Sequence record: OQ743992
DNA length: 64,000 nt
Reading direction: 5' to 3' (one strand)
Origin: Escherichia phage vB_EfeM_pEP20
In this document: positions 3,542-58,138 of the stretch, one piece after another
Layout of the letters: the number at the start of each line of letters is the position of its first letter
How positions within the stretch are numbered: position 1 is the first letter of the stretch
The notes under the pieces: model-generated
Database searches by the model: none
What the model saw: the letters and a program-made list of their open reading frames with translations, nothing else
What the model was told of the DNA's origin: nothing
Position numbers and translations under genes: made by a program

Positions 3542-3557
3542 TTTTGAATCCTACAGG

Positions 3558-3581
3558 TGAAAAGAGCCTCCGAAGAGGCTC
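3558..3581 (-). terminator. rho-independent terminator/attenuator upstream of nrdA
   Basis: Minus-sense hairpin GAGCCTC-TTCG-GAGGCTC followed by TTTTCACC, then the nrdA RBS. Confidence 0.5.
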
Positions 3582-3587
3582 CCTAGT

Positions 3588-3962: not shown

Positions 3963-4252
3963 CCATAGTCAGTTCTTTCTACACCCATGAAGAGTGGAGC
4001 CATTACAACTTTACCAAAAGTATTCCTGTGTTGACAGATTTCAAAAGAATACTCTTTCTCAATATCAATCCCGTATTTGTATAGGACTGCTTTTAAAACT
4101 TGTTCATTATCCAGAAGTGTATCTGGAGTCTCACCATACTTCTCAAGTAACGGGTCATTCATAAACACCGTCATAGAGATATTGTAGTTTGAGAAGTGGC
4201 TCTTCTGAGCCACACCTTCTTTATTAATGTTCTGTGAATCCATTATAACCAA
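3920..4252 (-). CDS. hypothetical protein (110 aa)
   Basis: Track ORF, tightly packed with neighbours. Confidence 0.5.
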   Translation of the reverse strand: MVIMDSQNINKEGVAQKSHFSNYNISMTVFMNDPLLEKYGETPDTLLDNEQVLKAVLYKYGIDIEKEYSFEICQHRNTFGKVVMAPLFMGVERTDYGWLYLKRNLEKYRV

Positions 4253-22651: not shown

Positions 22652-23193
22652 TTAAATTAATCTTTGCAAGTGGTGAAAATGGGGAGTTTGGTACTCCAAC
22701 TGGTATGCCGTGGCCTAGACATAAACAGGACATGCAAGAATTTAAGAGACTCACTAAAAACAACTTAGTGGTAATGGGTAATGAGACTTTTAAGACTCTG
22801 GGTAGTAAACCTTTACCAGAACGTGCAAACCTAATCTTAACAAACTCTGTACCATACTTAGGTATAGACTTTGGCAAAGATGATGTAATGTATGCTAAGA
22901 CCAGTAAAGAGTCTTTTGGAGCATTTTTGAAGTATCTTGACAGCTCTATTGATGAAGATGTCTTTGTAATTGGTGGTGCAGGTATCCTTGTCAATGCTTT
23001 ACCGTATGCTGATGTAGTGTTCCATACAGTTTTCCATAAAGTTACTGAAGAGGCCACTGTTCATTTACCTTTTGAAAACTTCTTTGAAAAGTTGTATGAT
23101 AACCGTGTATTTACAAAGGTACAGTCAAAACCATCAGAGGATGGTAAAGCAACTTTTGAAATTTATGTTCCACAAGTAAAAGGACACTTTTGA
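22648..23193 (+). CDS. dihydrofolate reductase
   Basis: 181 aa with DHFR signatures (GMPW, VVMGNETFKTL, VIGGAGIL). Confidence 0.8.
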   Translation: MIKLIFASGENGEFGTPTGMPWPRHKQDMQEFKRLTKNNLVVMGNETFKTLGSKPLPERANLILTNSVPYLGIDFGKDDVMYAKTSKESFGAFLKYLDSSIDEDVFVIGGAGILVNALPYADVVFHTVFHKVTEEATVHLPFENFFEKLYDNRVFTKVQSKPSEDGKATFEIYVPQVKGHF

Positions 23194-47858: not shown

Positions 47859-47894
47859 TATGTTTTCTCCAAATAATTAACCATGTTTCTCCTT

Positions 47895-47918
47895 AAAAAA
47901 GACGGTACAGAGACCGTC
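47895..47918 (-). terminator. rho-independent terminator (minus strand) between tRNA array and structural block
   Basis: Hairpin GACGGT-ACAGAG-ACCGTC, followed on the minus strand by TTTTTT. Confidence 0.5.
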
Positions 47919-48080
47919 AAGGAGAAACCACAATGTACGTCAGAGACATACTGTATAAGTCTTCTTATAAAGTATAACTCTGTAAAAAAGCCCTGTCTAA
48001 AAATACTCTTCGGTAGCGAAAGGAAGAATACTTATAGCAGGGCATTATTATTATTTTAATTGAGAGAGAGTAAAATAACT

Positions 48081-48156
48081 TGGAGAATCCGAAGGGACTC
48101 GAACCCTTATAAACCTGTTTTGCAGACAGGCACATAGCCATTTCTGTCACGGATTC
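48081..48156 (-). tRNA. tRNA-Cys (anticodon GCA)
   Basis: Hand-folded: perfect 7-bp acceptor, anticodon loop CTGCAAA, T-arm AAGGG-TTCGAGT-CCCTT, discriminator U, CCA encoded. Confidence 0.75.
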
Positions 48157-48160
48157 AAAT

Positions 48161-48253
48161 TGGAGGAAGATACCAGACTTGAACTGATACACCGATTTCT
48201 CAGCTACTGGCAGTTTAGCAAACTGCTCCCTTACCTTTTAGGGTTAATCTTCC
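48161..48253 (-). tRNA. tRNA-Ser (anticodon GCT), class II
   Basis: Perfect acceptor GGAAGAT/ATCTTCC, anticodon loop TTGCTAA, about 20-nt variable arm, T-loop TTCAAGT. Confidence 0.75.
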
Positions 48254-48254
48254 A

Positions 48255-48989
48255 TTATTTCTGTAATGCGTTCTTCATTTCTGGTGTTGCAATAGTGTCA
48301 ATTACACCAGTTTTACAAGCATCATCAAACCAGTCTGGTAAGATACCTGCTAAGAACCCATTGATATTCGTTTTAAGGTACTCTGCAATAAGGGCAGCTT
48401 CTTCTTCAATCATCTGCACAACTTCATCTGCATAAGCTGTAATCTTTGAGATACCTTCATTAATCTTGCTAACAGCTTGGTTAGCTAAATCAGAAATAGT
48501 ATCAAGACCTTTATCAATAGCATCTTGTAAGTCACTTAATACATCGTTAACACCGTCTAGTGCACTGTTAATTGTGTCAATAGCTTTTTGACCATATTCT
48601 GTAGCAACACCCATAATACCACTAAATGGTGTACAACCAACTTGCTCTCCTGCTGCACCCATAACATTGGAATATCCTTTTGCTACCTGCATACGTGATG
48701 AAAACTCATCAATGGACTTTTGACCGTAATCTGTCAGTGTCTTAGTGGTTGATGTAGTGCTTGTCAGACTCGTTGTAAAGCTGTTAAGCAGAACTGTTGT
48801 AAGTCCAGCGGCAACAAGTTTATCCTTTATTGTAGGGTCTGTTACAGAGCTAATAGAGCTTACAAGTGATGTAGAGGCAGCTACGGTTCCACCGAGAACT
48901 GCTGCACCAGTAATAAGGGGATTAGAAAACCCTCTACCGGTTTTTAAGAGACCAAAAATCTCCTTACCTTGTTCTGTCATCTCTTTCAT
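48255..48989 (-). CDS. hypothetical protein with hydrophobic segment and coiled-coil region, embedded in the tRNA array
   Basis: Start taken at ATG 48989 (MKEMTEQ...) behind AAAGGTG; the longer track start would overlap a tRNA-like gene. Confidence 0.45.
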   Translation of the reverse strand: MKEMTEQGKEIFGLLKTGRGFSNPLITGAAVLGGTVAASTSLVSSISSVTDPTIKDKLVAAGLTTVLLNSFTTSLTSTTSTTKTLTDYGQKSIDEFSSRMQVAKGYSNVMGAAGEQVGCTPFSGIMGVATEYGQKAIDTINSALDGVNDVLSDLQDAIDKGLDTISDLANQAVSKINEGISKITAYADEVVQMIEEEAALIAEYLKTNINGFLAGILPDWFDDACKTGVIDTIATPEMKNALQK

Positions 48990-49005
48990 TAAGCACCTTT
49001 GAAAT

Positions 49006-49080
49006 TGGTAGTTCAGTGGGATTTGAACCCTCTTCTCATGTTTTTCAGACACGCGCTTTAACCATATAAGCTACTTGGAC
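49006..49080 (-). tRNA. tRNA-like gene with Phe-type anticodon arm (GAA); acceptor stem does not pair, possible pseudo-tRNA
   Basis: Good D-arm (GCTT/AAGC) and anticodon arm (loop CTGAAAA), T-loop TTCAAAT, but 5' GTCCAAG cannot pair with 3' TGAACTA. Confidence 0.35.
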
Positions 49081-49087
49081 TATAAAT

Positions 49088-49163
49088 TGGGGTGACCTAC
49101 GGGATTTGAACCCGTATAGACCATGTTCACAGCATGGGTCATTACCATTTATGATAAGGCCAC
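49088..49163 (-). tRNA. tRNA-His (anticodon GTG)
   Basis: Acceptor GTGGCCT/AGGTCAC, D-stem TCAT/ATGA, anticodon loop CTGTGAA, T-arm ACGGG-TTCAAAT-CCCGT. Confidence 0.7.
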
Positions 49164-49194
49164 ATTTAAGGACTCTCGTAAGAATCCTTAGAAG

Positions 49195-49270
49195 TGGCAG
49201 CGGCATAAGGATTTGAACCTTAATAAGACAGCTTCAGAGACTGCTGCATTGCCAGTTATGCTATACCGCT
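49195..49270 (-). tRNA. tRNA-Gln (anticodon CTG)
   Basis: Acceptor AGCGGTA/TGCCGCT, D-stem GCAT/ATGC, anticodon loop CTCTGAA. Confidence 0.6.
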
Positions 49271-49275
49271 AAATT

Positions 49276-49354
49276 TGGTACTCCATATCGGATTCGAACC
49301 GATACATAACACAGATTTTAAGTCTGGCCTCTCTGCCAATTGGAGTAATGGAGC
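49276..49354 (-). tRNA. tRNA with Leu-type anticodon TAA but short variable arm (atypical)
   Basis: Acceptor GCTCCAT/ATGGAGT, perfect T-arm ATCGG-TTCGAAT-CCGAT, Leu-like D-loop AATTGGCAGAG, anticodon loop CTTAAAA, discriminator A, variable region only about 7 nt. Confidence 0.5.
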
Positions 49355-49356
49355 AT

Positions 49357-49432
49357 TGGCGGGGGATGCTGGAATTGAACCAGCTTCTTCGATTTCAAAG
49401 ACCGAGGTTTTAACCTTGTAAACTAATCCCCT
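49357..49432 (-). tRNA. tRNA-Gln (anticodon TTG)
   Basis: D-stem GTTT/AAAC, anticodon arm TCGGT-CTTTGAA-ATCGA, T-arm GCTGG-TTCAATT-CCAGC; first acceptor pair mismatched. Confidence 0.6.
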
Positions 49433-49440
49433 TTAAATCT

Positions 49441-49998
49441 TTACTTTCTTAGTGGATGAATAAAGAATGCCAACATAACTCTTTCCCTTGAGAATGCTCT
49501 TTCTTCTGGGACAACACTTTTTAGTTTCCATCCAATATAAATTCTCCAGTAAAACTGTTTACCAAAGACTTTAATTGATGGGATAAAAGCGAATAATCCC
49601 CAAGCATTACTGTTCCACATTAGGAGATAACCAGTCTGATTATCTTCAGGGTCAGAACTTACGTTGATATTACCTTTCCACTTAGTAACATCTTTTACAT
49701 CTCTTCCTAATACATGGTAAGAGAAGTTATAAGCTTTGTTTCTCCAGAGCCATCCAACTCTCTGCATATAAACACCAAGCTTACCAATCTTTCTAATCTT
49801 AGCCCATCTCTCAACGTGGCCTTTGTCACCATCAATCGGGTTGTCATAGGTCTCCATCCATCTGAATCCAAAAGGTAGATGCCCTTTCTTCTCGCTGTAG
49901 AATGGAACCACAAATGGTGCTAAGATTACTGCTAAGATTGCTGCAAATGGTTCTAGCAAAGCTAGGAAAATCCATGAAGCATATTTTAAATATCTCAT
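49441..49998 (-). CDS. hypothetical membrane protein (185 aa) inside tRNA array
   Basis: N-terminal hydrophobic helices (IFLALLEPFAAILAVILAPFVVPF). Confidence 0.45.
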   Translation of the reverse strand: MRYLKYASWIFLALLEPFAAILAVILAPFVVPFYSEKKGHLPFGFRWMETYDNPIDGDKGHVERWAKIRKIGKLGVYMQRVGWLWRNKAYNFSYHVLGRDVKDVTKWKGNINVSSDPEDNQTGYLLMWNSNAWGLFAFIPSIKVFGKQFYWRIYIGWKLKSVVPEERAFSRERVMLAFFIHPLRK

Positions 49999-50237
49999 CG
50001 TCTAATCCTTGTAAGGAGATAAGTGTTATTATTTGTTTCTGAGTTTTCTGGTAACATTGTCTCAAAATTGACACTTTTAAGTTGTCTTCCACCAAAGTAA
50101 TGACCAATAAATTTTTCTACTCTTATTGGGTCGCATTCCCAGCCGACTTTCAAGAAAATGTGGGTATCTATAGTGGGAACCCTTACAAACTCAACACTAT
50201 TGGAATTTTCATGTTCAACGACTATTAATGTTTGCAT
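49995..50237 (-). CDS. hypothetical protein (80 aa) inside tRNA array
   Basis: Track ORF with overlap to downstream gene. Confidence 0.4.
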   Translation of the reverse strand: MQTLIVVEHENSNSVEFVRVPTIDTHIFLKVGWECDPIRVEKFIGHYFGGRQLKSVNFETMLPENSETNNNTYLLTRIRR

Positions 50238-50245
50238 AAATCCCT

Positions 50246-50321
50246 CTTACTTAATTGGCGCAGGATAAGGGATTCGAACCCCTATTAACAGCTTCGTAGA
50301 CTGTTGCTCTATCCATTTGAA
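50246..50321 (-). tRNA. tRNA-Arg (anticodon ACG)
   Basis: Perfect acceptor GCAGGAT/ATCCTGC, anticodon loop CTACGAA, T-loop TTCGAAT. Confidence 0.7.
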
Positions 50322-50326
50322 CTAAT

Positions 50327-50404
50327 CCTGCAAAATTGGTGTTCCAAGACGGATTCGAACCGTCACTAGTACAAGGTTTGAGCTTGCATCCTCTGCCAAT
50401 TGGG
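50327..50404 (-). tRNA. tRNA with Leu-type anticodon CAA but short variable arm (atypical)
   Basis: Acceptor GTTCCAG/TTGGAAC, Leu-like D-loop AATTGGCAGAG, anticodon arm GCAAG-CTCAAAC-CTTGT, perfect T-arm GACGG-TTCGAAT-CCGTC, discriminator A, 6-nt variable region. Confidence 0.5.
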
Positions 50405-50405
50405 A

Positions 50406-50480
50406 TACTGGAACATGGTACTCACTAAAGGACTTGAACCTTTTTCTTCATCTTGTAAGGGTGATGTTTTACCATATAAA
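50406..50480 (-). tRNA. tRNA-Val (anticodon TAC)
   Basis: Acceptor ACTCGCT/AGTGAGT, D-stem GTTT/AAAC, anticodon loop CTTACAA, T-arm AAAGG-TTCAAGT-CCTTT. Confidence 0.65.
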
Positions 50481-50577
50481 CTAAGCGAGTGTGAAAAGAG
50501 GTCTGAAGTTGTGCCGCTAACTCAACTCCGTGGAATTTGTTACGGTCTTCAGTTGACTCAAAGCGGTCTTTCACTTG

Positions 50578-50653
50578 ACCTCTAAATTGGTGCTCCCACA
50601 AGGATTCGAACCCTGATAAGTTGCTTACAAGGCAACCGTAATAGCCAATTATA
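50578..50653 (-). tRNA. tRNA-Thr (anticodon TGT)
   Basis: Acceptor GCTCCTA/TGGGAGC, anticodon arm GTTGC-CTTGTAA-GCAAC, T-loop TTCGAAT. Confidence 0.65.
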
Positions 50654-50660
50654 CGATAGG

Positions 50661-50735
50661 AGCATTAATTTGGAGCATCCAGAGGGAATCGAACCCTCAA
50701 CCTCAGTTTGGAAGACTGTAATTTTCCCGTTTAAA
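50661..50735 (-). tRNA. tRNA-Gly (anticodon TCC)
   Basis: Perfect acceptor GCATCCA/TGGATGC, anticodon loop CTTCCAA, T-arm GAGGG-TTCGATT-CCCTC. Confidence 0.7.
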
Positions 50736-50741
50736 CTATGG

Positions 50742-50817
50742 ATGCACTAATTGGTGGAGTCACTGAGAATTGAACTCAGTTCCCAAGTTTGCAAAACTCG
50801 AATTTTAACCATATAAA
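50742..50817 (-). tRNA. tRNA-Ala (anticodon TGC)
   Basis: Acceptor GGGGTCA/TGACTCC with the G3-U70 pair, anticodon loop TTTGCAA, T-arm CTGAG-TTCAATT-CTCAG. Confidence 0.75.
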
Positions 50818-50824
50818 CTATGAC

Positions 50825-50900
50825 CCCCATTGTTTGGTACAGGTGGATGGAATTGAACCCATCGTCTTACTGATTAAGAGTCAGCCGCATAACCATTTTG
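50825..50900 (-). tRNA. tRNA-Lys (anticodon CTT)
   Basis: Acceptor GCAGGTG/CACCTGT, anticodon arm GCTGA-CTCTTAA-TCAGT, T-stem GATGG/CCATC. Confidence 0.6.
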
Positions 50901-50907
50901 CTACACC

Positions 50908-50984
50908 TGCATTAATTTGGTACACCTAGAGAGATTCGAACTCACACTGAGCAGATTCTAAGTCTGCTGCCTCTACCAGTTGGG
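50908..50984 (-). tRNA. tRNA with Leu-type anticodon TAG but short variable arm (atypical)
   Basis: Acceptor GCACCTA/TAGGTGT, Leu-like D-loop CAACTGGTAGAG, perfect anticodon arm GCAGA-CTTAGAA-TCTGC, T-loop TTCGAAT, discriminator A, 5-nt variable region. Confidence 0.5.
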
Positions 50985-51249
50985 CTATAGGTGCATTAAA
51001 TCTTTTTAGAGAACTTCTAAGAACCTAAGCAACAAGGTTCCACAACAAGCTGTAATAACCTTAGAAGCCCTCTAAAAAGACCTAAATAGGTCTTTGCATA
51101 GTCTTGTTTAATCCGGTGACTAGAACCTTTGGAGAGCTTGATATTATCTCTTCTCCGTGACACCTACTAGGTGCTTTATCAGTGTGTACGACAATACACG
51201 AGGGATAAACCGAAAATGCGAGCAAGCATGGACGGTATAAATCTTATTA

Positions 51250-51339
51250 GGCGGTAAGTAAAGGAGTCGAACCCTCACCGTATCTCTACAGTGGCAACTG
51301 TTTTCAAGACAGTTTGGCTACCATTAGCCGCTACCTACC
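51250..51339 (-). tRNA. tRNA-Ser (anticodon TGA), class II
   Basis: Acceptor GGTAGGT/ACTTACC, perfect anticodon arm ACTGT-CTTGAAA-ACAGT, 20-nt variable arm, T-loop TTCGACT; CCA not fully encoded. Confidence 0.65.
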
Positions 51340-51352
51340 CCTAATAAGACTT

Positions 51353-51435
51353 TGGCATGGGACGGAGGAGTTGAACCACTTTGAAACGGTTTTGGAGGCC
51401 GTTGCTCATGCCTTAGAGTCTTAACATCGTCCCAT
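51353..51435 (-). tRNA. tRNA-like gene with Trp-type anticodon loop (CCA) and expanded 5' D region (atypical)
   Basis: Perfect 7-bp acceptor ATGGGAC/GTCCCAT with discriminator G and CCA; loop CTCCAAA on stem ACGG/CCGT; about 8 extra nt before the D-arm and a weak T-stem. Confidence 0.4.
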
Positions 51436-51587
51436 ACTTTAATTCGAAGCTTACCGTATTTTCGCAACACTGTAAAGCCCCTTCTCAGATTATTTACATG
51501 TTCTGGAAAACATGAGATACAGACCACCTCCTTACACGGAGACCCGATAAGGTCGTCTAAGCAATCTGCTAACTATTTGGCACACCC

Positions 51588-51664
51588 TACAGGATTCGAA
51601 CCTGTAACTAACGATTTAGAAGACCGTTGCTCTATCCAATTGAACTAAGGGTGCATTAATCTTT
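51588..51664 (-). tRNA. tRNA-Arg (anticodon TCT)
   Basis: Acceptor GCACCCT/AGGGTGT, D-stem GTTC/GAGC, anticodon arm ACGGT-CTTCTAA-ATCGT, T-arm ACAGG-TTCGAAT-CCTGT. Confidence 0.7.
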
Positions 51665-51991
51665 AAAGACTCTCTTAGAAAGCCCTTAAAGATGCCCACC
51701 TTATTAATCATACCGTGGGCTAGTACGCCAAATTCTTTGATGAGGGATTGGAAGACCTCACTGGTGTTTAGCCTATCAAGCTACTGCCAGAAAAACATTG
51801 TCGTTTGCATTTATTTTAAATTTGCAAAATAGACGCTACGCAACGAAAACTATTCAGAATATGTACAACAAATTTCCCCACATTGTGTTACGTCTAACGC
51901 TCATGTATTGGTGTTTGAATTATACATATTATGAATCATTTTTAGTTACTATAAAGCGGTCACATCTCAATGTCAACAACTTTATTGAAAT

Positions 51992-52067
51992 TGGTGCTGG
52001 TAGGTGGAATCGAACCACCGATATTCCCTTATCAGGGGAGTGTTATAACCTTCTTAACTATACCAGC
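51992..52067 (-). tRNA. tRNA-Ile (anticodon GAT)
   Basis: Perfect acceptor GCTGGTA/TACCAGC, D-stem GTTA/TAAC, anticodon loop CTGATAA, T-arm GGTGG-TTCGATT-CCACC. Confidence 0.7.
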
Positions 52068-52068
52068 T

Positions 52069-52145
52069 TGGAGGTTCAGATGGGAATCGAACCCACATTC
52101 ATAGGGCTTATGAAACCCCTGCATTACCTTATCTGCGACTGAACC
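52069..52145 (-). tRNA. tRNA-Met (anticodon CAT)
   Basis: Acceptor GGTTCAG/CTGAACC, anticodon arm with three consecutive G-C pairs and loop TTCATAA, T-arm GTGGG-TTCGATT-CCCAT. Confidence 0.65.
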
Positions 52146-52149
52146 ATAT

Positions 52150-52225
52150 TGGTAGAAGTAGAGGGATTCGAACCCATCGCCTGTCAGATTAAAAGTCTGC
52201 CGCATCACCATTCTGCTACACTTCC
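52150..52225 (-). tRNA. tRNA-Lys (anticodon TTT)
   Basis: Acceptor GGAAGTG/TACTTCT (two G-U pairs), anticodon loop CTTTTAA, T-loop TTCGAAT with a weak stem. Confidence 0.55.
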
Positions 52226-52229
52226 ATTA

Positions 52230-52373
52230 AATTATCTTTGTAGATAAGCTACCCAGACTTGCTTAAGGTCTGTAGCGATGTGCCTTTTTGGGTTTAAATC
52301 TAGAATTTACCCTTTCACCCTTTGTGGTCGCATACTCACAGGTAAGCTTAATAACTTATCTACAAAGATAATT
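52230..52373. repeat. 19-bp perfect inverted repeat (AATTATCTTTGTAGATAAG) enclosing about 106 bp
   Basis: Arms at 52230-52248 and 52355-52373 are exact reverse complements; the enclosed sequence holds hairpin CCCAGAC-TTGCTTAAG-GTCTG. Confidence 0.6.
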
Positions 52374-52374
52374 A

Positions 52375-52506
52375 CCAGACCGTTGTTTATCATCTTAAGT
52401 GCTACCATTACACCAACTCGACATCTGCCGAGTGAAGGAATCGAACCTTCGCCTTTTCTTTACCGGAGAAATAGATTGTTTAAAGTTTGCTGTAAACGGT
52501 CTTCTG
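52375..52506 (-). ncRNA. candidate Y-RNA-like ncRNA U1 with embedded tRNA-like module (YrlA-like architecture)
   Basis: Minus-sense 5' CAGAAGACCGUUUACAGCAAAC ... ACGGUCUGG 3' with termini pairing (AGACCGU/ACGGUCU); interior has hairpin UUUCU-CCGGUAA-AGAAA, T-arm GAAGG-UUCGAUU-CCUUC, closed acceptor-like hairpin ACUCGGC-AGAU-GUCGAGU, D-arm GUG-UAAUGGUAG-CAC. Confidence 0.5.
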
Positions 52507-52519
52507 TAAATTTGTTGAG

Positions 52520-52604
52520 CCAGACCAAGTTTTAAATTTTTCAAAATTAAATTGGCTTGAAATTTTAAGTAACTTGCTGAATTTGGTCTTCTGCTCCTTT
52601 AAAG
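52520..52604 (-). ncRNA. candidate Y-RNA-like ncRNA U2
   Basis: Minus-sense 5' CAGAAGACCAAAUUCAGCAAG ... UUGGUCUGG 3'; terminal stem AGACCAA/UUGGUCU covaries with U1/U3. Confidence 0.45.
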
Positions 52605-52690
52605 AATACTCGTAAGAACTCTTTAAGGGAGGGGCTAAATAGCCCTCTCAAACATCATTTTGAAATACTTATTATAATTTGGCGGTTACG

Positions 52691-52768
52691 AAGGGATTCG
52701 AACCCTCATCATCTCCCGTGACAGGGGAGTATTTTAACCAGATTAAACTACATAACCTTCATTTGGTG
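52691..52768 (-). tRNA. tRNA-Asp (anticodon GTC)
   Basis: Acceptor GGTTATG/CGTAACC, perfect anticodon arm CTCCC-CTGTCAC-GGGAG, T-loop TTCGAAT. Confidence 0.7.
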
Positions 52769-52774
52769 TGCCGT

Positions 52775-52862
52775 GTAGGAGTCGAACCTACCGAGTCTTA
52801 ATGACAAGGGATTTACAGTCCCCACCGCTACCATCTACGGGATAACGACACATTTAAATTTG
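52775..52862 (-). tRNA. tRNA-Tyr (anticodon GTA), class II
   Basis: Acceptor GTGTCGT/ACGGCAC, anticodon loop CTGTAAA, long variable arm, T-arm GTAGG-TTCGACT-CCTAC. Confidence 0.65.
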
Positions 52863-52871
52863 GCGGTTAGT

Positions 52872-52948
52872 CAGGGATTCGAACCCTGTGCCATTCGCTT
52901 AACAGGCGACCGCACATACCTTATGTGCTTCCTAACCTTAATACATTG
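52872..52948 (-). tRNA. tRNA-Asn (anticodon GTT)
   Basis: D-stem GCAC/GTGC, anticodon loop CTGTTAA, T-arm CAGGG-TTCGAAT-CCCTG; last acceptor pair mismatched. Confidence 0.65.
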
Positions 52949-52959
52949 CCAGACCGTGT

Positions 52960-53020
52960 TTTTTCTTTTATCCACAAAAAAGTAGTTTGTTGCTGAATAC
53001 GGTCTTCTGCAAAATTGGAG
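52960..53020 (-). ncRNA. candidate Y-RNA-like ncRNA U3
   Basis: Minus-sense 5' CAGAAGACCGUAUUCAGCAAC ... CACGGUCUGG 3'; internal hairpin CUUUUUU-GUGGAU-AAAAGA. Confidence 0.45.
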
Positions 53021-53026
53021 GCGGGT

Positions 53027-53103
53027 GCAGGAGTCGAACCTGCCGATACCATGCTAATGAGACATGTGAGACGCCCTTTCTCTATACCCGCAATTCTTAA
53101 TGA
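53027..53103 (-). tRNA. tRNA with anticodon CAT (second Met, or Ile2 if lysidine-modified)
   Basis: Anticodon arm CATGT-CTCATTA-GCATG, T-arm GCAGG-TTCGACT-CCTGC; first acceptor pair mismatched. Confidence 0.6.
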
Positions 53104-53114
53104 CCAGACCAAAT

Positions 53115-53187
53115 CTCTTCTTTGTCCGATTTCGTGTCAGATGAATAAGCTTAAGTTTGCTGTAATTGGTCTTCTGTCAAAACTGGC
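53115..53187 (-). ncRNA. candidate Y-RNA-like ncRNA U4
   Basis: Minus-sense 5' CAGAAGACCAAUUACAGCAAAC ... UUGGUCUGG 3'; same conserved 5' core and covarying terminal stem as U2. Confidence 0.45.
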
Positions 53188-53194
53188 GTTCCAG

Positions 53195-53272
53195 AAGGGA
53201 TTTGAACCCTCAAATATCCACTTTGAAAGAGTGGTGACTTTACCATTTTGTCTACTGGAACATTAATTTGGT
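53195..53272 (-). tRNA. tRNA-Glu (anticodon TTC)
   Basis: Perfect acceptor GTTCCAG/CTGGAAC, perfect anticodon arm CCACT-CTTTCAA-AGTGG, T-loop TTCAAAT. Confidence 0.7.
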
Positions 53273-53279
53273 CTCTGTT

Positions 53280-53356
53280 GGAGGACTTGAACCTCCGGCC
53301 TTACCGCCCCAAACGGAACGCTCTACCAAGCTGAGCTAAACAGAGATAAACTTTTC
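53280..53356 (-). tRNA. tRNA-Pro (anticodon TGG)
   Basis: Perfect acceptor CTCTGTT/AACAGAG, D-stem GCTC/GAGC, anticodon loop TTTGGGG, T-arm GGAGG-TTCAAGT-CCTCC. Confidence 0.7.
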
Positions 53357-53475
53357 AAACTCTATGTAACCACTTTAACATTATTTTTTAGTGGTTGTCA
53401 AGAACTTTTTTTAAAATATTTTTCAGTATCTTAGAAAAGCTCTCATTTCGTTTCTATGTAGAACATATTAAAGGG

Positions 53476-53501
53476 TATTAAACACATTGTCAATACCCTT
53501 T
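53476..53501 (-). terminator. hairpin downstream of the Ro60-like gene (terminator or promoter-overlapping operator)
   Basis: Minus-sense GGGTATT-GACAATGTGTTT-AATACCC followed by TTTAATAT; the same stretch contains TTGACA, so it may be a promoter for the tRNA array instead. Confidence 0.35.
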
Positions 53502-53511
53502 TTAAAACTTT

Positions 53512-54927
53512 TTACCAGATGTAACGGTCAATCATTACTGCTTTGAGCATTACGCTGATTGGGTCAAACTTCTCACCACCGAGCAGAGCTTTTAAAGTGG
53601 CTGGAGAGAACCCTGATACCATTGCTACACCGTTATCCTTAACAGACACTTCGCAAGTACCATTACGGTTTGCTAAGTACCAGAATACCAGTTGTGGCAT
53701 TTCGTATCCAGCTTTTTTGTACTTACTACGAATTGCTTCAAAGTTTGTACGACCATTTGCACCATCAACCTGATTGAACTCCATATCAGAGAAGATGATA
53801 AGCTTACTTGGCATATCTTTCTGAGTCAAGTTGTTTCTCTTACCTGTCTCAAGAATACGGTCAAAAGCTGCTTGTAAGTTAGTTGAGCCATATTCAACAT
53901 GACGCATCACCTGACGATGACGGTTTTTCAAATCACCACTCAGTTCGATGAAATGAGGGTTTGTTGAATAAACCATTAACTCATTCTTAAAGCAACCCGT
54001 ATTGCGTTCTGCTACATACAAGGCAAGGGATACACCAATATCAAGGGCAGTGATTGAACCAAGATTCACCCAAGACATTGAGCTTGAAACATCAGTCATA
54101 CACAGGATGTTCTCACCTTCTGCCATCCAGTTTGGTAGTGCTTTCCACTGCTCATTAGCCACATCTGCATTACCATACTTAATAGATTTAATCACATCGT
54201 ATGGGTAAACAGCACCAGCGTTAATCTTAACCTCACCCTTTGAGAGTGACTCGATGTAAGCTTTGTAACGTTCCCCATCTTTACGGTTAAAGAGTTTTTG
54301 GTAACGTGCAGTAGCGAGTGAAGGAATCTTGCTGTAGTCAATCTTACCAAACTCATTAGCAGAGATTTTTTGCTCAACCGTATCAGACAGTGCAGATAAC
54401 AGTGTGCGATACTCCTTCTCACTTAAGTTTGCAAACTTACAGAAACGTTTTACAAACTGTTTGTGGCGTGGTTTTACTCGTGGTAACCACTTAGCCGCTA
54501 AACCTGCTGTTGCAGGGTCTAGTAATGCTGCTTCTAAATGTTTGAAGGCATCTGTCTCAAAACGAGTGCCTACGAAGATTTTGAAGTCATCAAAACGACC
54601 AAGTTCTGCAATCTTATCCATAATGCGAAGAACCTGTGTAGGTTCTAAAACTTTATCTTCAATCGCTTGAAGTAAAACAGTTCGGAAAGCTTTACGCTCA
54701 CCCATACCTTCTCGTACATCTCGCATATGCAGTAAAATACGAACTGCAACATCAACATCCTCACGCAAAGCTTTGTAGAACAGGTCTGGTAAGATTTCTA
54801 CATTGCTACGGCTTGAGCCAGCGGCTTTGTAAAAGTCTACCAGAGCAGACATTGATGAAGTATGGTTTACAGCACCATTTTCAGTTCGACCTGCATGAAG
54901 GTGCGCATGTTTAAATAACTCGCTCAT
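53512..54927 (-). CDS. Ro60-like protein (TROVE-like helical N-terminal region + von Willebrand A domain with MIDAS motif)
   Basis: 471 aa; helical N-terminal 260 aa, then DVSSSM MIDAS motif and a C-terminal region that aligns from memory with the Ro60 vWA domain (DVSASM...LGSI, GSTN vs GGTD, IFSDME vs VFTDNE). Confidence 0.5.
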   Translation of the reverse strand: MSELFKHAHLHAGRTENGAVNHTSSMSALVDFYKAAGSSRSNVEILPDLFYKALREDVDVAVRILLHMRDVREGMGERKAFRTVLLQAIEDKVLEPTQVLRIMDKIAELGRFDDFKIFVGTRFETDAFKHLEAALLDPATAGLAAKWLPRVKPRHKQFVKRFCKFANLSEKEYRTLLSALSDTVEQKISANEFGKIDYSKIPSLATARYQKLFNRKDGERYKAYIESLSKGEVKINAGAVYPYDVIKSIKYGNADVANEQWKALPNWMAEGENILCMTDVSSSMSWVNLGSITALDIGVSLALYVAERNTGCFKNELMVYSTNPHFIELSGDLKNRHRQVMRHVEYGSTNLQAAFDRILETGKRNNLTQKDMPSKLIIFSDMEFNQVDGANGRTNFEAIRSKYKKAGYEMPQLVFWYLANRNGTCEVSVKDNGVAMVSGFSPATLKALLGGEKFDPISVMLKAVMIDRYIW

Positions 54928-55007
54928 ATTTTACTCTCTTCTCTCATTGTTGTTTGATGTGACAGACTTTAGAGCAACTTTGTAGAGTCTGTCAACACCT
55001 TTTAAAA

Positions 55008-55379
55008 TTATTTTTTAAGAGTCGCTACAGCAGAGAACGTTGGTTTGTTATCTGTCTGAGGCTGACCACCATTATCAGGGGTCTTCTTAGTGTCTGCTGC
55101 AATTGCTTTCATCTCACCTGCTGAGTGTGTCATGATAGTTTTACCAGCTTCCATCATCGACTTTAGGTTTACATCGTCAGTCGTCAAACCAAACTCTGCA
55201 AGCTTAGCAGCATCCCTTGTAACAATCGCCTCAAACAACTTTGCAGCAAACTCAGCAGAATTATCAATGGTCAGTTGAGCTTTTACGAGAGAGCTTTTGT
55301 TACGTGAGCCTTTCGGTCTTCCAGATGGGTTTCCGGACTGGCCTTTTTTAAACTGGCCTTTGTTTGTTCTGTTTTTCAT
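55008..55379 (-). CDS. hypothetical basic protein (123 aa)
   Basis: Track ORF with Gly/Lys-rich N-terminus (GNPSGRPKGSRNK). Confidence 0.45.
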   Translation of the reverse strand: MKNRTNKGQFKKGQSGNPSGRPKGSRNKSSLVKAQLTIDNSAEFAAKLFEAIVTRDAAKLAEFGLTTDDVNLKSMMEAGKTIMTHSAGEMKAIAADTKKTPDNGGQPQTDNKPTFSAVATLKK

Positions 55380-56636: not shown

Positions 56637-57008
56637 ATGAAAGCTAAGAGTGCAAAAGACTTTTATTGCTTCCTACAATCCTATATCAATTCCGTGCAAA
56701 ATGGTGAAAGGTACAACCTTAATGATGTTATCCCAACACCTTTGACATGGAGACTCAGTAAATGGCCTGAAGAAGATATTACACCAACAAGCGAACAACG
56801 TACCTACAAACCTGAAATCAATATTCCAGATTCTGAGAATCTATTATATCCAATGTTCCATATTGTTGGTCTTGGAAGATTCCTTATGGATATCCAGTAT
56901 GTAATTGGTAAAGGTTATAAGGTTAAAGGCGTTGTTGTTGGTGATGTATCTCCGCATCACAAAGGTTATTTTAGACTAAACGCACATTTAGAGGCTAAAA
57001 AGAAATGA
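56637..57008 (+). CDS. hypothetical protein (123 aa), paralog of the N-terminal domain of the next gene
   Basis: Shares layout and motifs with residues 1-120 of the 57005-58138 product. Confidence 0.5.
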   Translation: MKAKSAKDFYCFLQSYINSVQNGERYNLNDVIPTPLTWRLSKWPEEDITPTSEQRTYKPEINIPDSENLLYPMFHIVGLGRFLMDIQYVIGKGYKVKGVVVGDVSPHHKGYFRLNAHLEAKKK

Positions 57009-58138
57009 TTAAAGCAAAGACTTACCCAGACTTCAAAGAGTTTGTGAAGGGCTTCATTGCAAATGTAAAGGCTGGTAAGAGATATGATTTTAGAACATAT
57101 CAAGAGGCTATTTTACCACTCACCTATAGTTCGTATTGGCCTGAAGCTGATATTGCAGAAGTTAAGAAGTTTGACTACAACCCAGACTATAAAGTCCCAT
57201 TTAGTGATGAGTTGCTTTACAGTGTTGGTGCTCAAATGAGAACTTCTGACTTCTTCATGGACTTACAATATGCAATTATCAATGGTAAAGACGTTGATAC
57301 AGTTTATTGTGAATGGCTGGCAAGAGTTAAACCATTCTCAATGTTGAATGCTAAGTTGAAGGATGCTATCAAGCCACCAGCAATTACTCAGCAACCAACA
57401 GGTCAAACAGTCAATGAGGGTGGCACACTTACTCTAAGCATTCTAGCAACTAACGCCACTGGATATCAGTGGAAAAAGGATGGTGAGGACATCCCTAGTG
57501 CCAATTCTGCAACTTATACAAAACAGTCAGTAGCACCTTCTGACGCTGGTGCATACACTTGTGTTGTATCTGGAGAGGGTGGAACAAGTGTTACCTCAGA
57601 TGCAGCAACAGTGACTGTGAACGCACTACCTGTGATTACCAAGCAACCTTCTAACCAGACTATTAATGAAGGTGGAAACATCAACTTAGCAGTTACTGCA
57701 ACTGGTGCAACTGGCTACCAATGGAAGAAAGATGGTTCTGACATTCCTTCAGCTACAAATGCTACCTATAGCAAGTCTGGTGCTCTGCCAGTAGATGCAG
57801 GTTCATACACTTGCGTTGTAACAGGTGCAGGTGGCTCTGTAACGTCTAACGCTGCAACAGTTACTGTGAATGCACTTCCAGTAATCACTCAACAGCCAAC
57901 CAATCAAGAAATCAATGAAGGTGAGACCTTAACACTGAATGTTGTGGCAACAGGTGCAACGGGTTACCAGTGGAAGAAAGGTGAGGAAGATATCCTCGAT
58001 GCAACCGCTGCAACTTACACTAAAGAAGGTGCAACCGCTGCTGATTCGGGAAGCTACACCTGTGTAGTTACTGGTGCAGGTGGCTCTGTCACATCTAACG
58101 CAGCAACAGTTACAGTTAGTCCAGTAGGAGGGGCATAA
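57005..58138 (+). CDS. protein with three tandem immunoglobulin-like (I-set-like) repeats
   Basis: Three copies of about 85 aa each containing ATGYQWKKDG ... D(A/S)G(A/S)YTCVV(T/S)GAGG ... ATVTV. Confidence 0.6.
   Translation: MIKAKTYPDFKEFVKGFIANVKAGKRYDFRTYQEAILPLTYSSYWPEADIAEVKKFDYNPDYKVPFSDELLYSVGAQMRTSDFFMDLQYAIINGKDVDTVYCEWLARVKPFSMLNAKLKDAIKPPAITQQPTGQTVNEGGTLTLSILATNATGYQWKKDGEDIPSANSATYTKQSVAPSDAGAYTCVVSGEGGTSVTSDAATVTVNALPVITKQPSNQTINEGGNINLAVTATGATGYQWKKDGSDIPSATNATYSKSGALPVDAGSYTCVVTGAGGSVTSNAATVTVNALPVITQQPTNQEINEGETLTLNVVATGATGYQWKKGEEDILDATAATYTKEGATAADSGSYTCVVTGAGGSVTSNAATVTVSPVGGA

What the first reader, a model, noticed from the sequence alone, without database searches (positions are those of the whole stretch)
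53512..54927. Ro60-like (TROVE-like + vWA/MIDAS) protein encoded immediately upstream of the tRNA / Y-like RNA array
The 471-aa product has a helical N-terminal region and a C-terminal von Willebrand A domain with a DVSSSM MIDAS motif. Several segments line up with my recollection of the Ro60 vWA domain. Ro60 orthologs bind Y RNAs and act in RNA quality control, and here the gene sits next to the candidate Y-like RNAs and on the same strand. I did not see an RtcB-like ligase in this window.
Basis: partly seen in the sequence, partly recalled or inferred. Interest (0 to 1): 0.7.

Follow-up and report, generated by a model that had tools for sequence, protein, structure and literature searches.

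The report
Phage Ro60-like protein and Y-like RNAs
This Felix O1-like phage gene encodes a highly diverged relative of the RNA-binding ring protein Ro60; a preprint already showed that its near-identical ortholog disarms a bacterial defence nuclease, and here it turns out to be genomically tied, across very different phages, to a family of small structured RNAs that is not in Rfam 15 and was not found in the papers I searched.

Summary
Window 53512-54927 (minus strand) encodes a 471-aa protein with a helical N-terminal half, a C-terminal vWA domain with an invariant MIDAS motif, and a 26-tRNA array directly downstream on the same strand.

This is prior art. The protein is 98% identical to Bas63 gp130, which the PhageMaP preprint (2024) called Ro60-like, noted as lying upstream of the tRNAs, and showed to counter the Ppl defence nuclease.

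What I did not find described:
- Four paralogous Y-like RNAs sit inside the array. One is a YrlA-like permuted tRNA mimic.
- Their core (helix, CAGCAA, closing G) recurs next to homologous genes in diverse phages: 93 on the gene strand, 3 opposite, 0-5 in shuffles.
- A hold-out set of unseen phages confirmed it.

Most likely this is a Ro60-type RNP. How it blocks Ppl is unknown; capture of single-stranded 3' ends is my inference.

The parts
53512..54927 (-). Gene for the 471-aa Ro60-like protein (DUF2828+DUF7788 family, PHROG 850). It is the ortholog of Bas63 gp130.
   Evidence: ORF. Pfam and PHROG assignments. 462/471 residues identical to bas63_0130. Fold matches Ro60.
54133..54927 (-). N-terminal half, residues 1-265: short N-terminal beta strands carrying the invariant T15-x-N17-G18, then about 15 helices. 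This is the HEAT-ring (TROVE-like) part. Net charge is +8.
54196..54222 (-). Junction motif NAGAVYPYD (residues 236-244), which aligns with Ro60's RGRIHPxD.
   Evidence: hhalign of the family profile against a canonical Ro60 profile: 89.6% probability, E 1.9e-6, starting at this motif. N236 and P242 are invariant; A237, A239, Y241 and Y243 are at least 90% conserved.
53515..54132 (-). C-terminal vWA domain, residues 266-471 (Pfam DUF7788).
54079..54093 (-). MIDAS DxSxS (D279-V-S281-S-S283). T349 and D381 complete the site.
   Evidence: All five residues are invariant in 44 homologs.
54966..54995 (-). Sigma-70-like promoter (TTGACA-18-TAAAGT, 10/12 matches) in the 80-nt gap upstream of the gene.
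   Evidence: Consensus scan only. The total number of promoter-like sites in the region is not above the shuffle expectation.
53372..53501 (-). A 12-bp hairpin directly after the stop codon, plus two sigma-70-like promoters (10/12 each) ahead of tRNA-Pro. They suggest the array is a separate, co-oriented transcription unit.
   Evidence: Consensus scan. This is inference, not evidence of function.
53101..53179 (-). Y-like RNA element A (short form), between tRNA-Glu and tRNA-Met. Layout: outer stem TGAC/GTCA, AGA/G internal loop, inner helix AGACCAA/UUGGUCU, then ACAGCAA.
52946..53012 (-). Y-like RNA element B (short form), between tRNA-Met and tRNA-Asn.
   Evidence: The outer stem is TTGC/GCAA here and TTAC/GTAA in Bas63, a compensatory change.
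52517..52596 (-). Y-like RNA element C (short form).
52372..52509 (-). Y-like RNA element D (long form). The same basal module encloses a V-like hairpin, a T arm (GAAGGUUCGAUUCCUUC), a closed acceptor-like hairpin and a D arm. This is a YrlA-like permuted tRNA mimic.
   Evidence: Three pairs of the acceptor-like hairpin show compensatory changes among Ounavirinae. Rfam's tRNA model scores 24.7 bits at 52426-52490, below threshold.
48081..53345 (-). Array of 26 tRNA genes. It also contains three probable protein-coding ORFs and several structured gaps.
   Evidence: ARAGORN, Rfam, ORF list, fold z-scores of the gaps.

Best explanation
The gene encodes the Felixounavirus ortholog of Bas63 gp130. 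It is a strongly diverged member of the Ro60 structural family: a ring of HEAT-like helices closed by a C-terminal vWA domain with an intact MIDAS site. At sequence level it belongs to the DUF2828+DUF7788 family.

Shown here:
- the Ro60-like fold;
- the family assignment;
- the near-identity to gp130;
- a genomic linkage, across many phage lineages, to small structured RNAs on the same strand.

Shown by others, for the 98%-identical ortholog:
- knock-outs are neutral on the S17, MG1655, TerY-P and AVAST type 4 hosts and strongly depleted only on the Ppl host;
- the protein alone rescues T7 on a Ppl host.

Inferred:
1. Like Ro60 with Y RNAs, the protein binds the phage's own Y-like RNAs. There are four in this window. 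Their shared helix-CAGCAA-G module would be the protein-binding site. The tRNA-like top of element D would recruit tRNA-handling or RNA-decay enzymes.
2. The RNA-free ring captures single-stranded 3' ends in its central hole, as Ro60 does. This would mask the 3'-OH ends that the Ppl 3'-5' exonuclease needs. The Y-like RNAs would then gate or retarget the protein rather than being required for the anti-Ppl effect.

My rough confidence by step: Ro60-fold homolog about 0.9; RNA partnership about 0.65; 3'-end capture as the anti-Ppl step about 0.35.
For: Fold:
- AlphaFold2 model with pLDDT 90.3 and pTM 0.90.
- Foldseek's top 12 hits are all full-length Ro60.

Sequence:
- hhalign gives 89.6% probability, E 1.9e-6, to canonical Ro60 over the vWA domain and the RIHP-like junction helix.
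- The MIDAS residues are invariant.

Ortholog data:
- 98% identity to Bas63 gp130.
- Screen scores for gene 130 are -2.9 to -3.7 on ppl, against +0.6 to +1.1 on four other hosts.
- gp130 alone rescues T7 on ppl.
- Ppl is a 3'-5' ssDNA exonuclease that senses 3'-OH ends.

RNA linkage in the window:
- Four elements against 0.22 expected by chance.
- The basal module is 100% paired over 176 cells, 5 of 11 pairs change on both sides, and the covariation score is 0.49 against 0.18 in shuffles, 0 of 500 reaching it.
- Element D has the V-T-AS-D order that defines YrlA, with compensatory changes.

RNA linkage across lineages:
- 18 permuted tRNA-like modules on the gene strand, 0 on the opposite strand, about 0.15 in shuffles.
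- 93 helix-CAGCAA-G elements on the gene strand, 3 opposite, 0-5 in shuffles. 46 of 78 loci have one within 1 kb of the gene, and 49 of 93 lie within 300 nt of its ends.
- Hold-out set of 8 unseen phages: 4 on the gene strand, 0 opposite, about 0.1 in shuffles.
- 199 tRNA/tmRNA genes in 31 of 75 loci, all co-oriented with the gene.

RNA-repair neighbours elsewhere:
- RtcB-like ligase in Listeria phage LP-083-2.
- RNA ligase and a CCA-adding/2',3'-cyclic phosphodiesterase enzyme in Serratia phage BF.
Against: - No Pfam TROVE match.
- The N-terminal half has no significant profile similarity to TROVE: probability 0.1%, E 0.53.
- HMM searches of PDB sequences do not reach Ro60.
- No Rfam Y-RNA family matches, and the published YrlA 5' motif GNCGAAN0-1G is absent from the basal module.
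- RNA binding has not been shown for any member of this family.
- Insertions in Bas63 'gene 137', which lies inside elements C and D, do not reduce fitness on ppl: +0.55 to +0.73. gp130 also works in T7, which lacks these RNAs. At least element D is therefore dispensable for the one known phenotype.
- The RNA descriptor was designed after seeing the data. It misses 26 of 78 loci and finds nothing in 6 of the 8 hold-out loci.
- The outer helix seen in this window is not general: 21% of elements have at least 4 bp, against 27.5% for permuted partners.
- Whether a Ro60-type cavity accepts DNA 3' ends is unknown.
Confidence: 0.6

Rival explanations
1. Direct protein inhibitor of Ppl. The vWA/MIDAS face binds an acidic residue of Ppl, as integrin I-domains and midasin bind their ligands, and blocks or sequesters the nuclease. 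Under this reading the Ro60-like ring and the neighbouring RNAs serve a different function or none.
For: - gp130 alone is enough to rescue T7 on ppl, from a plasmid or from the T7 genome.
- Disrupting element D has no effect on ppl.
- The MIDAS residues are invariant across the family.
Against: - The family occurs in phages of Mycobacterium, Listeria, Campylobacter, Vibrio and many environmental hosts. A single host protein target is unlikely to explain conservation of the whole ring.
- It does not explain the tight, strand-specific linkage to structured RNAs.
Confidence: 0.25
2. RNA and tRNA quality-control or repair factor for the phage's own tRNA array. The ring binds pre-tRNA, damaged tRNA or tRNA-like RNAs and hands them to host exoribonucleases or phage repair enzymes. 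The anti-Ppl effect would be indirect, for example through RNA turnover and nucleotide pools, since Ppl is held off by bound NTPs.
For: - The gene is co-oriented with and adjacent to tRNA arrays in many lineages.
- RtcB, RNA ligase, CCA-adding enzyme and macro-domain genes are neighbours in other phages.
- Some helix-CAGCAA modules wrap ordinary tRNA-like units.
- Thermus phage phiRo60 forms complexes with host PNPase and lowers its activity.
- Ppl is inhibited by bound NTPs.
Against: - Gene 130 knock-outs show no fitness cost on four hosts.
- T7, which has no tRNAs, is rescued by the protein alone.
- No RNA ligase is annotated in Bas63.
- 44 of 75 loci have no tRNA within 6 kb.
Confidence: 0.2
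3. The linked RNA elements are cis-regulatory parts of the gene's own mRNA (leader, terminator or stability elements), not trans-acting partners. The protein would be a vWA protein whose Ro60-like ring binds something other than RNA.
For: - Many elements lie within 25-60 nt of the start or stop codon.
- A hairpin follows the stop codon in the window.
Against: - In this window the elements lie 330-1140 nt downstream, separated from the gene by promoters and tRNA genes.
- Elements occur on either side of the gene and in up to 6 copies per locus.
- Some carry complete tRNA-like domains with T and D loops.
- This pattern is what is described for Y RNA genes next to Ro60.
Confidence: 0.08
4. Virion or assembly protein: a structural vWA protein, or a vWA cochaperone of the MoxR type.
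For: - The homolog in Salmonella phage 7t3 is annotated 'structural protein'.
- The gene lies between a DUF5681 gene (possibly the small terminase) and the large terminase. In Staphylococcus phage 6ec it lies between TerS and TerL.
Against: - Knock-outs are neutral on four hosts, whereas structural genes are strongly depleted.
- No AAA+ MoxR partner is nearby.
- The fold match covers the whole Ro60 architecture, not only the vWA domain.
Confidence: 0.04

Closest known systems
Bas63 (Escherichia phage JohannRWettstein) gp130, PhageMaP preprint 10.1101/2024.10.10.617714
   Same: - 462 of 471 residues identical.
- Same position: DUF5681 gene, then gp130, then the tRNA array.
- Already described as structurally similar to Ro60 and as lying directly upstream of the tRNAs.
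- Shown to counter the Ppl defence and to be transferable to T7.
   Different: Nothing substantive at the protein level. The preprint only speculated that 'some tRNA genes are possibly Y RNAs'. The actual elements are non-tRNA sequences in the gaps, and in Bas63 they are partly covered by the annotated ORFs bas63_0137 and bas63_0138 on the opposite strand.
Ro60/Rsr with Y RNAs (Xenopus Ro60 1yvp; Deinococcus Rsr 2nvo; Salmonella and Mycobacterium Rsr with YrlA/YrlB; Chen et al. 2014, PMC4201824)
   Same: - Helical ring plus C-terminal vWA with MIDAS, in the same order and arrangement.
- Partner-like RNAs encoded within a few kb on the same strand.
- One long RNA with a permuted tRNA-like domain (V, T, closed acceptor, D arms) and shorter RNAs without it, like YrlA and YrlB.
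- RtcB or RNA-ligase neighbours in some genomes.
   Different: - About 12% sequence identity.
- Pfam DUF2828+DUF7788 instead of TROVE+PF25045.
- About 65 residues shorter.
- The conserved RNA module is helix-N2-4-CAGCAA...helix'-G, not GNCGAAN0-1G or GGUCCGA.
- No RNA binding has been shown.
phiRo60 of Thermus phage phiLo (PDB 9KOP, 9L5Y; PMC12135203)
   Different: - phiRo60 is deposited in the PDB as a 'TROVE domain-containing protein' and binds Yrl1 and Yrl2, which were found through CGAA motifs.
- It forms complexes with host PNPase.
- No anti-defence phenotype has been shown for it.
'Ro-like RNA binding protein' of actinobacteriophages (for example Snenia gp54, Krypton555 gp56); PHROG 850 'RNA-binding protein'
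   Same: Same sequence family: tblastn E about 1e-72 at 34% identity; PHROG 850 E 1e-183. The Krypton555 locus carries a YrlA-like module and helix-CAGCAA elements directly after the gene.
   Different: These are annotation labels only. I found no published RNA partner or mechanism. LeBron gp53 carries the same label and is reported as moderately toxic on overexpression. I did not verify its membership by sequence.

Membership tests
Ro60 / TROVE family (Pfam PF05731 TROVE + PF25045) | Significant match to the TROVE sequence model | tested here: not met
   - Pfam at E<=1 lists only DUF7788 and DUF2828.
- phmmer and hmmsearch against PDB sequences do not reach Ro60.
- hhalign of the N-terminal halves: probability 0.1%, E 0.53.
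Ro60 / TROVE family (Pfam PF05731 TROVE + PF25045) | Helical (HEAT-like) ring followed by a C-terminal vWA domain, with the Ro60 overall fold | tested here: met
   - Model pLDDT 90.3, pTM 0.90.
- Foldseek's top 12 hits are all Ro60, TM-score 0.44-0.65.
- This rests on a predicted structure.
Ro60 / TROVE family (Pfam PF05731 TROVE + PF25045) | Sequence-profile relationship of the vWA domain and junction helix to the Ro60 vWA domain | tested here: met
   hhalign of A1 against A4: 89.6% probability, E 1.9e-6, 200 columns. Residues 233-454 align to Ro60 309-534, and NAGAVYPYD sits opposite RGRIHPxD.
Ro60 / TROVE family (Pfam PF05731 TROVE + PF25045) | Complete MIDAS site (DxSxS, T, D) | tested here: met
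   D279, S281, S283, T349 and D381 are invariant in 44 homologs.
Ro60 / TROVE family (Pfam PF05731 TROVE + PF25045) | Binds Y RNA on the outer surface and single-stranded 3' ends in the central cavity | not testable with these tools
   Only indirect evidence: invariant basic residues in the N-terminal half, net charge +8, and genomic linkage to structured RNAs.
Ro60 / TROVE family (Pfam PF05731 TROVE + PF25045) | Y-RNA-like genes within a few kb on the same strand | tested here: met
   - Four elements lie 330-1140 nt downstream on the same strand.
- Across lineages there are 93 on the gene strand, 3 opposite and 0-5 in shuffles.
- The hold-out set gave 4, 0 and about 0.1.
Ro60 / TROVE family (Pfam PF05731 TROVE + PF25045) | Operon or neighbourhood link to RNA repair (RtcB) or to PNPase | tested here: inconclusive
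   - Not in this genome type: the Bas63 product list has no RtcB or RNA ligase.
- Present in other phages: RtcB-like ligase in LP-083-2, RNA ligase and CCA-adding enzyme in Serratia phage BF.
DUF2828 + DUF7788 family (PF11443 + PF25043; PHROG 850) | Both Pfam models above their curated cut-offs, and a full-length PHROG match | tested here: met
   - DUF7788: 147.6 bits against a cut-off of 27.1.
- DUF2828: 101 bits against a cut-off of 29.
- PHROG 850: E 1.1e-183 over residues 1-471.
Anti-Ppl counter-defence protein (Bas63 gp130) | Orthology to the tested protein | tested here: met
   98% identity over the full length, with the same flanking genes.
Anti-Ppl counter-defence protein (Bas63 gp130) | Relieves Ppl restriction | not testable with these tools
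   Taken from the preprint and its supplement. Not tested for this phage.
YrlA-type bacterial Y RNA (Chen et al. 2014), applied to element D | T arm, closed acceptor-like (AS) hairpin and D arm in that order, with an upstream V hairpin | tested here: met
   RNAalifold consensus on 7 Ounavirinae sequences. Three AS pairs show changes on both sides. The T loop is UUCGAUU and the D loop contains GG.
YrlA-type bacterial Y RNA (Chen et al. 2014), applied to element D | GNCGAAN0-1G motif near the 5' end (the putative Ro60 site) | tested here: not met
   - The 5' module reads C-AGA-AGACC...ACAGCAA.
- The only GNCGAAG-like string lies in the T stem and is not conserved: GGAGAAGG in L008 and SUSP1.
YrlA-type bacterial Y RNA (Chen et al. 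2014), applied to element D | Match to a curated Y-RNA covariance model | tested here: not met
   Rfam 15 gives only a sub-threshold tRNA hit, 24.7 bits against a cut-off of 29. No Y-RNA family appears even at E<=10. I do not know whether a YrlA model is in Rfam 15.
Phage structural vWA protein / MoxR-vWA chaperone pair | Needed for virion production, or paired with a MoxR AAA+ ATPase | tested here: not met
   Gene 130 insertions are neutral on four hosts. No AAA+ gene is among the neighbours.

The most novel reading that the evidence does not exclude
DUF2828/DUF7788 proteins and the helix-CAGCAA-G RNAs together form a second, phage-centred branch of the Ro60-Y RNA world. This would be a widespread RNP, seen here in over 700 phage records from Proteobacteria, Firmicutes, Actinobacteria and Campylobacter. 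Its RNA partners would range from 55-nt hairpins to permuted or ordinary tRNA mimics. Its protein ring would disarm end-sensing defence nucleases such as Ppl by capturing single-stranded 3' ends, with the RNAs gating or retargeting that activity.
Probability: 0.35. Interest if true: 0.85.

Novelty: new variant of a known kind. Interest (0 to 1): 0.6.

Why it matters
The function of Ro60 and Y RNAs outside animals is still poorly understood, and no clean loss-of-function phenotype exists for a phage Ro60.

Here a Ro60-fold protein has a sharp, transferable phenotype (anti-Ppl) in a tractable E. coli phage. It now also has candidate RNA partners with a short conserved module that can be mutated. 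Three questions become directly testable:
- Does the ring bind RNA?
- What do the RNAs do?
- How is an end-sensing nuclease neutralised?

The work also gives a functional lead for a large domain-of-unknown-function family (DUF2828) that the literature I searched mentions mostly in plants. It flags unannotated RNA genes inside the tRNA regions of phages used for typing and therapy.

One point must stay clear. The protein-level identification itself is prior art (PhageMaP preprint, actinobacteriophage 'Ro-like RNA binding protein' annotation labels, PHROG 850). Only the RNA linkage and its breadth appear new.

Tried and rejected
- Sequence routes to Ro60 failed. These were Pfam TROVE, NCBIfam, phmmer and profile hmmsearch against PDB sequences, and hhalign restricted to the N-terminal halves under three settings. 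Only the vWA domain and junction helix aligned.
- Rfam gave no Y-RNA or other non-tRNA family, at gathering threshold or at E<=10, in the window or in 10 other loci.
- The exact Ounavirinae RNA motif (CAGAAGACC...GGTCTGG) is absent outside Ounavirinae, so it was relaxed.
- The first relaxed descriptor had a high background: 203 on the gene strand, 91 opposite, about 67 in shuffles. It was replaced by a stricter one.
- The GNCGAAG string inside element D is a coincidence of the T stem and is not conserved.
- I tested whether the outer helix of the window's elements is general. It is not: 21% against 27.5% for permuted partners.
- I did not build a covariance model, because spacing and apical length vary too much for a clean MAFFT alignment.
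- PHROG scans of five neighbouring ORFs gave only families of unknown function or weak matches.
- A DUF2828 literature search returned only plant and tardigrade mentions.
- I could not find the primary paper on the Ppl mechanism in the library. The mechanism is cited from a review.
Full report
**1. The observation**

The ORF at 53512-54927 on the minus strand starts with ATG and encodes 471 aa. DVSSSM occupies residues 279-284. ARAGORN finds 26 tRNA genes at 48081-53345, all on the minus strand. The first, tRNA-Pro, begins 166 nt after the stop codon, and Rfam confirms 24 of them at gathering threshold.

Megablast identifies the window as a Felix O1-like phage (Felixounavirus). The gene region matches 251 phage records at more than 80% coverage. 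There the gene is annotated 'hypothetical protein', 'RNA-binding protein' or 'vWFA protein'.

**2. What the protein is by sequence**

Pfam gives DUF7788 (residues 275-455, E 4e-43) and DUF2828 (E 9e-29). It does not give TROVE. PHROGs gives family 850, 'RNA-binding protein', over the full length (E 1e-183). NCBIfam gives nothing. Neither the single sequence nor a 44-sequence profile reaches Ro60 among PDB sequences.

The family is large. 2342 database proteins scored E<=1e-3. tblastn finds it in 709 phage records. These include Felixounavirus, Vibrio and Aeromonas T4-like phages, Mycobacterium phages (annotated 'Ro-like RNA binding protein'), Listeria, Staphylococcus, Enterococcus, Bacillus and Campylobacter phages, rhizobiophages, jumbo phages and a Lak phage.

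In an alignment down to 42% identity, the invariant residues include a full MIDAS set (D279, S281, S283, T349, D381). They also include many basic residues in the N-terminal half: R40, R69, R72, R78, R111 and K146.

**3. What it is by structure**

The AlphaFold2 model built on that alignment is confident (pLDDT 90.3, pTM 0.90). It shows short N-terminal strands, about 15 helices up to residue 263, then a vWA fold.

- Foldseek against the PDB returns 12 hits at E<=1e-3. All are full-length Ro60: Thermus phage phiRo60, Xenopus and human Ro60, and Deinococcus Rsr (E 5e-8 to 1e-6, TM 0.44-0.65). The next hits are vWA domains only.

**4. Sequence-level test of Ro60 membership**

I retrieved real Ro60 sequences. 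With Rsr I collected canonical bacterial Ro60 proteins, which all carry PF05731 TROVE plus PF25045.

Profile-profile comparison of the two families gives 89.6% probability (E 1.9e-6) over residues 233-454. This covers the vWA domain and the preceding helix, where the invariant NAGAVYPYD aligns with Ro60's RGRIHPxD.

The N-terminal halves alone are not significantly similar (probability 0.1%, E 0.53). A low-confidence collinear alignment does place family-invariant motifs opposite each other: TENGAV with NNAGGYV, and IPELGRWDD with LPEVARTGT.

I therefore file the protein as a Ro60-fold homolog of the DUF2828/DUF7788 family, not as a TROVE-family member by sequence.

**5. Prior art**

The PhageMaP preprint (10.1101/2024.10.10.617714) studied Bas63, a Felixounavirus. 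It reports four things about gp130:
[quoted passage not shown] - it is needed for normal plaques on a host carrying the Ppl defence gene;
- on its own, it restores T7 plaquing on that host.

bas63_0130 is 462/471 identical to the window protein and has the same neighbours.

The supplement gives these scores for gene 130:

| Host | Scores |
|---|---|
| ppl | -2.87, -3.35, -3.65 |
| S17, MG1655, TerY-P, AVAST type 4 | +0.6 to +1.1 |

So the protein is dispensable except against Ppl. A 2026 review describes Ppl as a single-gene 3'-5' ssDNA exonuclease. It is activated by nucleotide depletion together with 3'-OH ends made by phage homing endonucleases.

The central interpretation of the finding is thus correct but already published.

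**6. The Y-like RNAs in the window**

Folding the non-coding gaps of the array revealed a recurring element. The pattern CAGAAGACCNWWTHCAGCAA occurs four times, all on the tRNA strand, against 0.22 expected.

Each copy folds the same way: a 4-bp outer stem, a 5'-AGA/3'-G internal loop, a 7-8 bp inner helix AGACCNN/NNGGUCU, then NUNCAGCAA and a variable top. Window coordinates on the minus strand:

| Element | Coordinates |
|---|---|
| A | 53179-53101 |
| B | 53012-52946 |
| C | 52596-52517 |
| D | 52509-52372 |

All four are conserved in Felixounavirus, Mooglevirus and Suspvirus. On 16 distinct basal modules:
- every one of 176 cells is paired;
- 5 of 11 pairs change on both sides;
- the covariation score is 0.49 against 0.18 for shuffles, with 0 of 500 reaching it;
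- slid controls pair at 46% or less.

The G-U wobbles that occur work only on this strand. One caveat applies: inner-helix pairing was a search criterion, but outer-stem pairing was not.

Element D encloses a V-like hairpin, a T arm (GAAGGUUCGAUUCCUUC), a closed acceptor-like hairpin and a D arm. The acceptor-like hairpin keeps pairing through ACTCG/CGAGT, ACACG/CGTGT and ACCCTTC/GAAGGGT. This V-T-AS-D order is exactly how Chen et al. define YrlA, the tRNA-mimicking Y RNA of bacteria, whose genes lie within 4 kb of Ro60 on the same strand.

The published 5' motif GNCGAAN0-1G is not present, and no Rfam family matches.

**7. The RNA linkage is general**

I fetched 80 viral contigs that encode relatives. 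In the 75 that are not Felixounavirus, 31 have tRNA or tmRNA genes within 6 kb. All 199 such genes are on the gene's strand, and arrays often start directly after or end directly before the gene. The same holds in Klebsiella phage FBKp34.

*Permuted tRNA-like modules.* I scanned for a T arm, a closed acceptor hairpin of at least 7 bp and a D arm. The result was 18 on the gene strand, 0 opposite and about 0.15 per shuffle over 973 kb. None overlaps a called tRNA. They occur directly beside the gene in mycobacteriophage Krypton555, in FBKp34 and in many environmental contigs.

*The basal module.* The flanks of these modules carry the same module as in the window: a helix whose 5' arm starts [A/U]-G-R, then 2-4 nt, then CAGCAA. 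Downstream, the complementary arm is followed by an unpaired G. A strict descriptor of this module gives:
- 93 hits on the gene strand, 3 on the opposite strand, and 0-5 in ten shuffles;
- at least one hit in 52 of 78 loci, and one within 1 kb of the gene in 46;
- 49 of the 93 hits within 300 nt of the gene's ends;
- hits in loci that have no tRNAs at all.

In the window, the four array elements are the only hits with a helix of at least 7 bp.

*Hold-out test.* Because the descriptor was written after seeing the data, I tested it on eight phages I had not looked at, at 28-42% identity. It gave 4 hits on the gene strand, 0 opposite and about 0.1 per shuffle. Three are tandem copies 74-336 nt upstream of the Listeria phage LP-083-2 gene. 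One lies 21 nt upstream of the Campylobacter phage CP30A gene.

*Limits.* The tops of the elements vary: small hairpins, permuted tRNA mimics or ordinary-orientation tRNA-like units. The outer helix is not general: 21% of elements have at least 4 bp, against 27.5% for permuted partners.

**8. Other context**

- RNA-repair genes neighbour the gene in other phages: an RtcB-like ligase in LP-083-2, an RNA ligase and a CCA-adding/2',3'-cyclic phosphodiesterase enzyme in Serratia phage BF, and an Appr-1-p processing enzyme in phiM19.
- None is annotated in Bas63, which does have a polynucleotide kinase and a phosphatase.
- In the window, consensus scans suggest the gene has its own promoter. They also show a hairpin after the stop codon and two further promoters before tRNA-Pro. 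The gene and the array are therefore probably adjacent, co-oriented units. This is inference only.

**9. How it most likely works**

*Shown:* the Ro60 fold, the invariant MIDAS site, orthology to an anti-Ppl protein, and strand-specific linkage to conserved structured RNAs.

*Inferred:* the protein forms Ro60-type RNPs with these RNAs. The helix-CAGCAA-G module would be the binding site, and the tRNA-like tops would be handles for tRNA-handling or RNA-decay enzymes.

For the anti-Ppl step, three facts constrain the model:
- the protein works alone in T7;
- insertions in Bas63 'gene 137', which lies inside elements C and D, are harmless on ppl (+0.55 to +0.73);
- Ppl needs free single-stranded 3'-OH ends.

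Ro60's best-established protein-only activity is threading single-stranded 3' ends through its hole, and Y RNA regulates access to that hole. I therefore favour capture of 3' ends by the RNA-free ring, with the RNAs gating or retargeting it. I put this step at roughly 35%. Direct MIDAS-mediated binding of Ppl is a close rival.

**10. Verdict**

The protein-level claim is already in the literature, so on its own it would rate as known.

What appears not to have been described is the identity of the Y-like RNAs and the breadth of their linkage to this protein family. They are not mis-annotated tRNAs. They are four gap elements, one of them YrlA-like.

I rate the system as a new variant of the Ro60-Y RNA kind, with moderate-to-high interest.

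Noticed in passing
L003-L005, L011-L085, L089-L096 (for example L004 6462-6719, L005 6620-6813, L075 7386-8110, L089 3623-3885, L092 3937-4016): A conserved RNA module (helix starting [A/U]GR, 2-4 nt, CAGCAA, variable top, complementary arm, unpaired G) lies next to DUF2828-family genes in very different phages. It often occurs in tandem copies. It is not in Rfam 15.
   Followed up: yes
L002 (Bas63) 22748-23022; corresponds to window about 52260-52530: The annotated Bas63 ORFs bas63_0137 and bas63_0138 lie on the strand opposite to Y-like elements C and D and overlap them. They are probably spurious protein calls over RNA genes. Their PhageMaP scores are neutral on ppl.
   Followed up: partly
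window 55008-55379 (-) and 46035-47651 (-); L090 (Staphylococcus phage 6ec) 3347-8105: The Ro60-like gene and the tRNAs sit between a DUF5681 gene and the large terminase. The DUF5681 gene is depleted on every host whose rows I read in PhageMaP, so it is possibly the small terminase. Staphylococcus phage 6ec has the same order: TerS, Ro60-like, tRNA-Pro, TerL. The recurrence in unrelated phages is unexplained.
   Followed up: partly
window 47859-48080, 50995-51249, 51655-51991, 52226-52371 (-): Other non-coding gaps of the tRNA array fold much more stably than shuffles (z -3.8 to -6.0) and lack the CAGCAA module. Weak sub-threshold Rfam hits fall here or nearby: tmRNA at 51655-51844, permuted tmRNA at 51776-52050, and tRNA-Sec-like at 51359-51433. 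They may be further ncRNAs, terminators or decayed tRNAs.
   Followed up: no
window 48255-49052, 49441-49998, 49995-50237 (-): Three ORFs embedded in the tRNA array are conserved as PHROG families 2114, 2143 and 14202. The 265-aa ORF weakly resembles tape-measure and 'GTP-binding domain' families. The Sf13 record notes its counterpart as a 'predicted receptor recognition protein', and PhageMaP calls the Bas63 counterparts 'membrane protein*' and 'holin*'. Their function is unclear.
   Followed up: partly
L086 (Michonne) 3352-3804; L088 (SUSP1) 3627-4031; corresponds to window gap 50995-51249: Related Ounavirinae carry an HNH endonuclease gene inserted in the tRNA array at or near the position of this gap, where the window has no annotated gene. 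This is relevant because Ppl is said to sense 3'-OH ends made by phage homing endonucleases.
   Followed up: no
window 57005-58138 (+): A 377-aa protein with three near-identical tandem repeats of about 80 aa. Its position corresponds to the Bas63 gene annotated 'immunoglobulin-like domain protein', just upstream of the endolysin gene.
   Followed up: no
L085 9091-9167; L074 11627-11704; L094 7593-7668: Unusual tRNAs occur near homologous genes in other phages. There is a CUA-anticodon (amber suppressor, called 'Pyl') tRNA, a tRNA with an 8-nt anticodon loop (anticodon 'catt'), and a 'tRNA-TERM' in phiM19.
   Followed up: no
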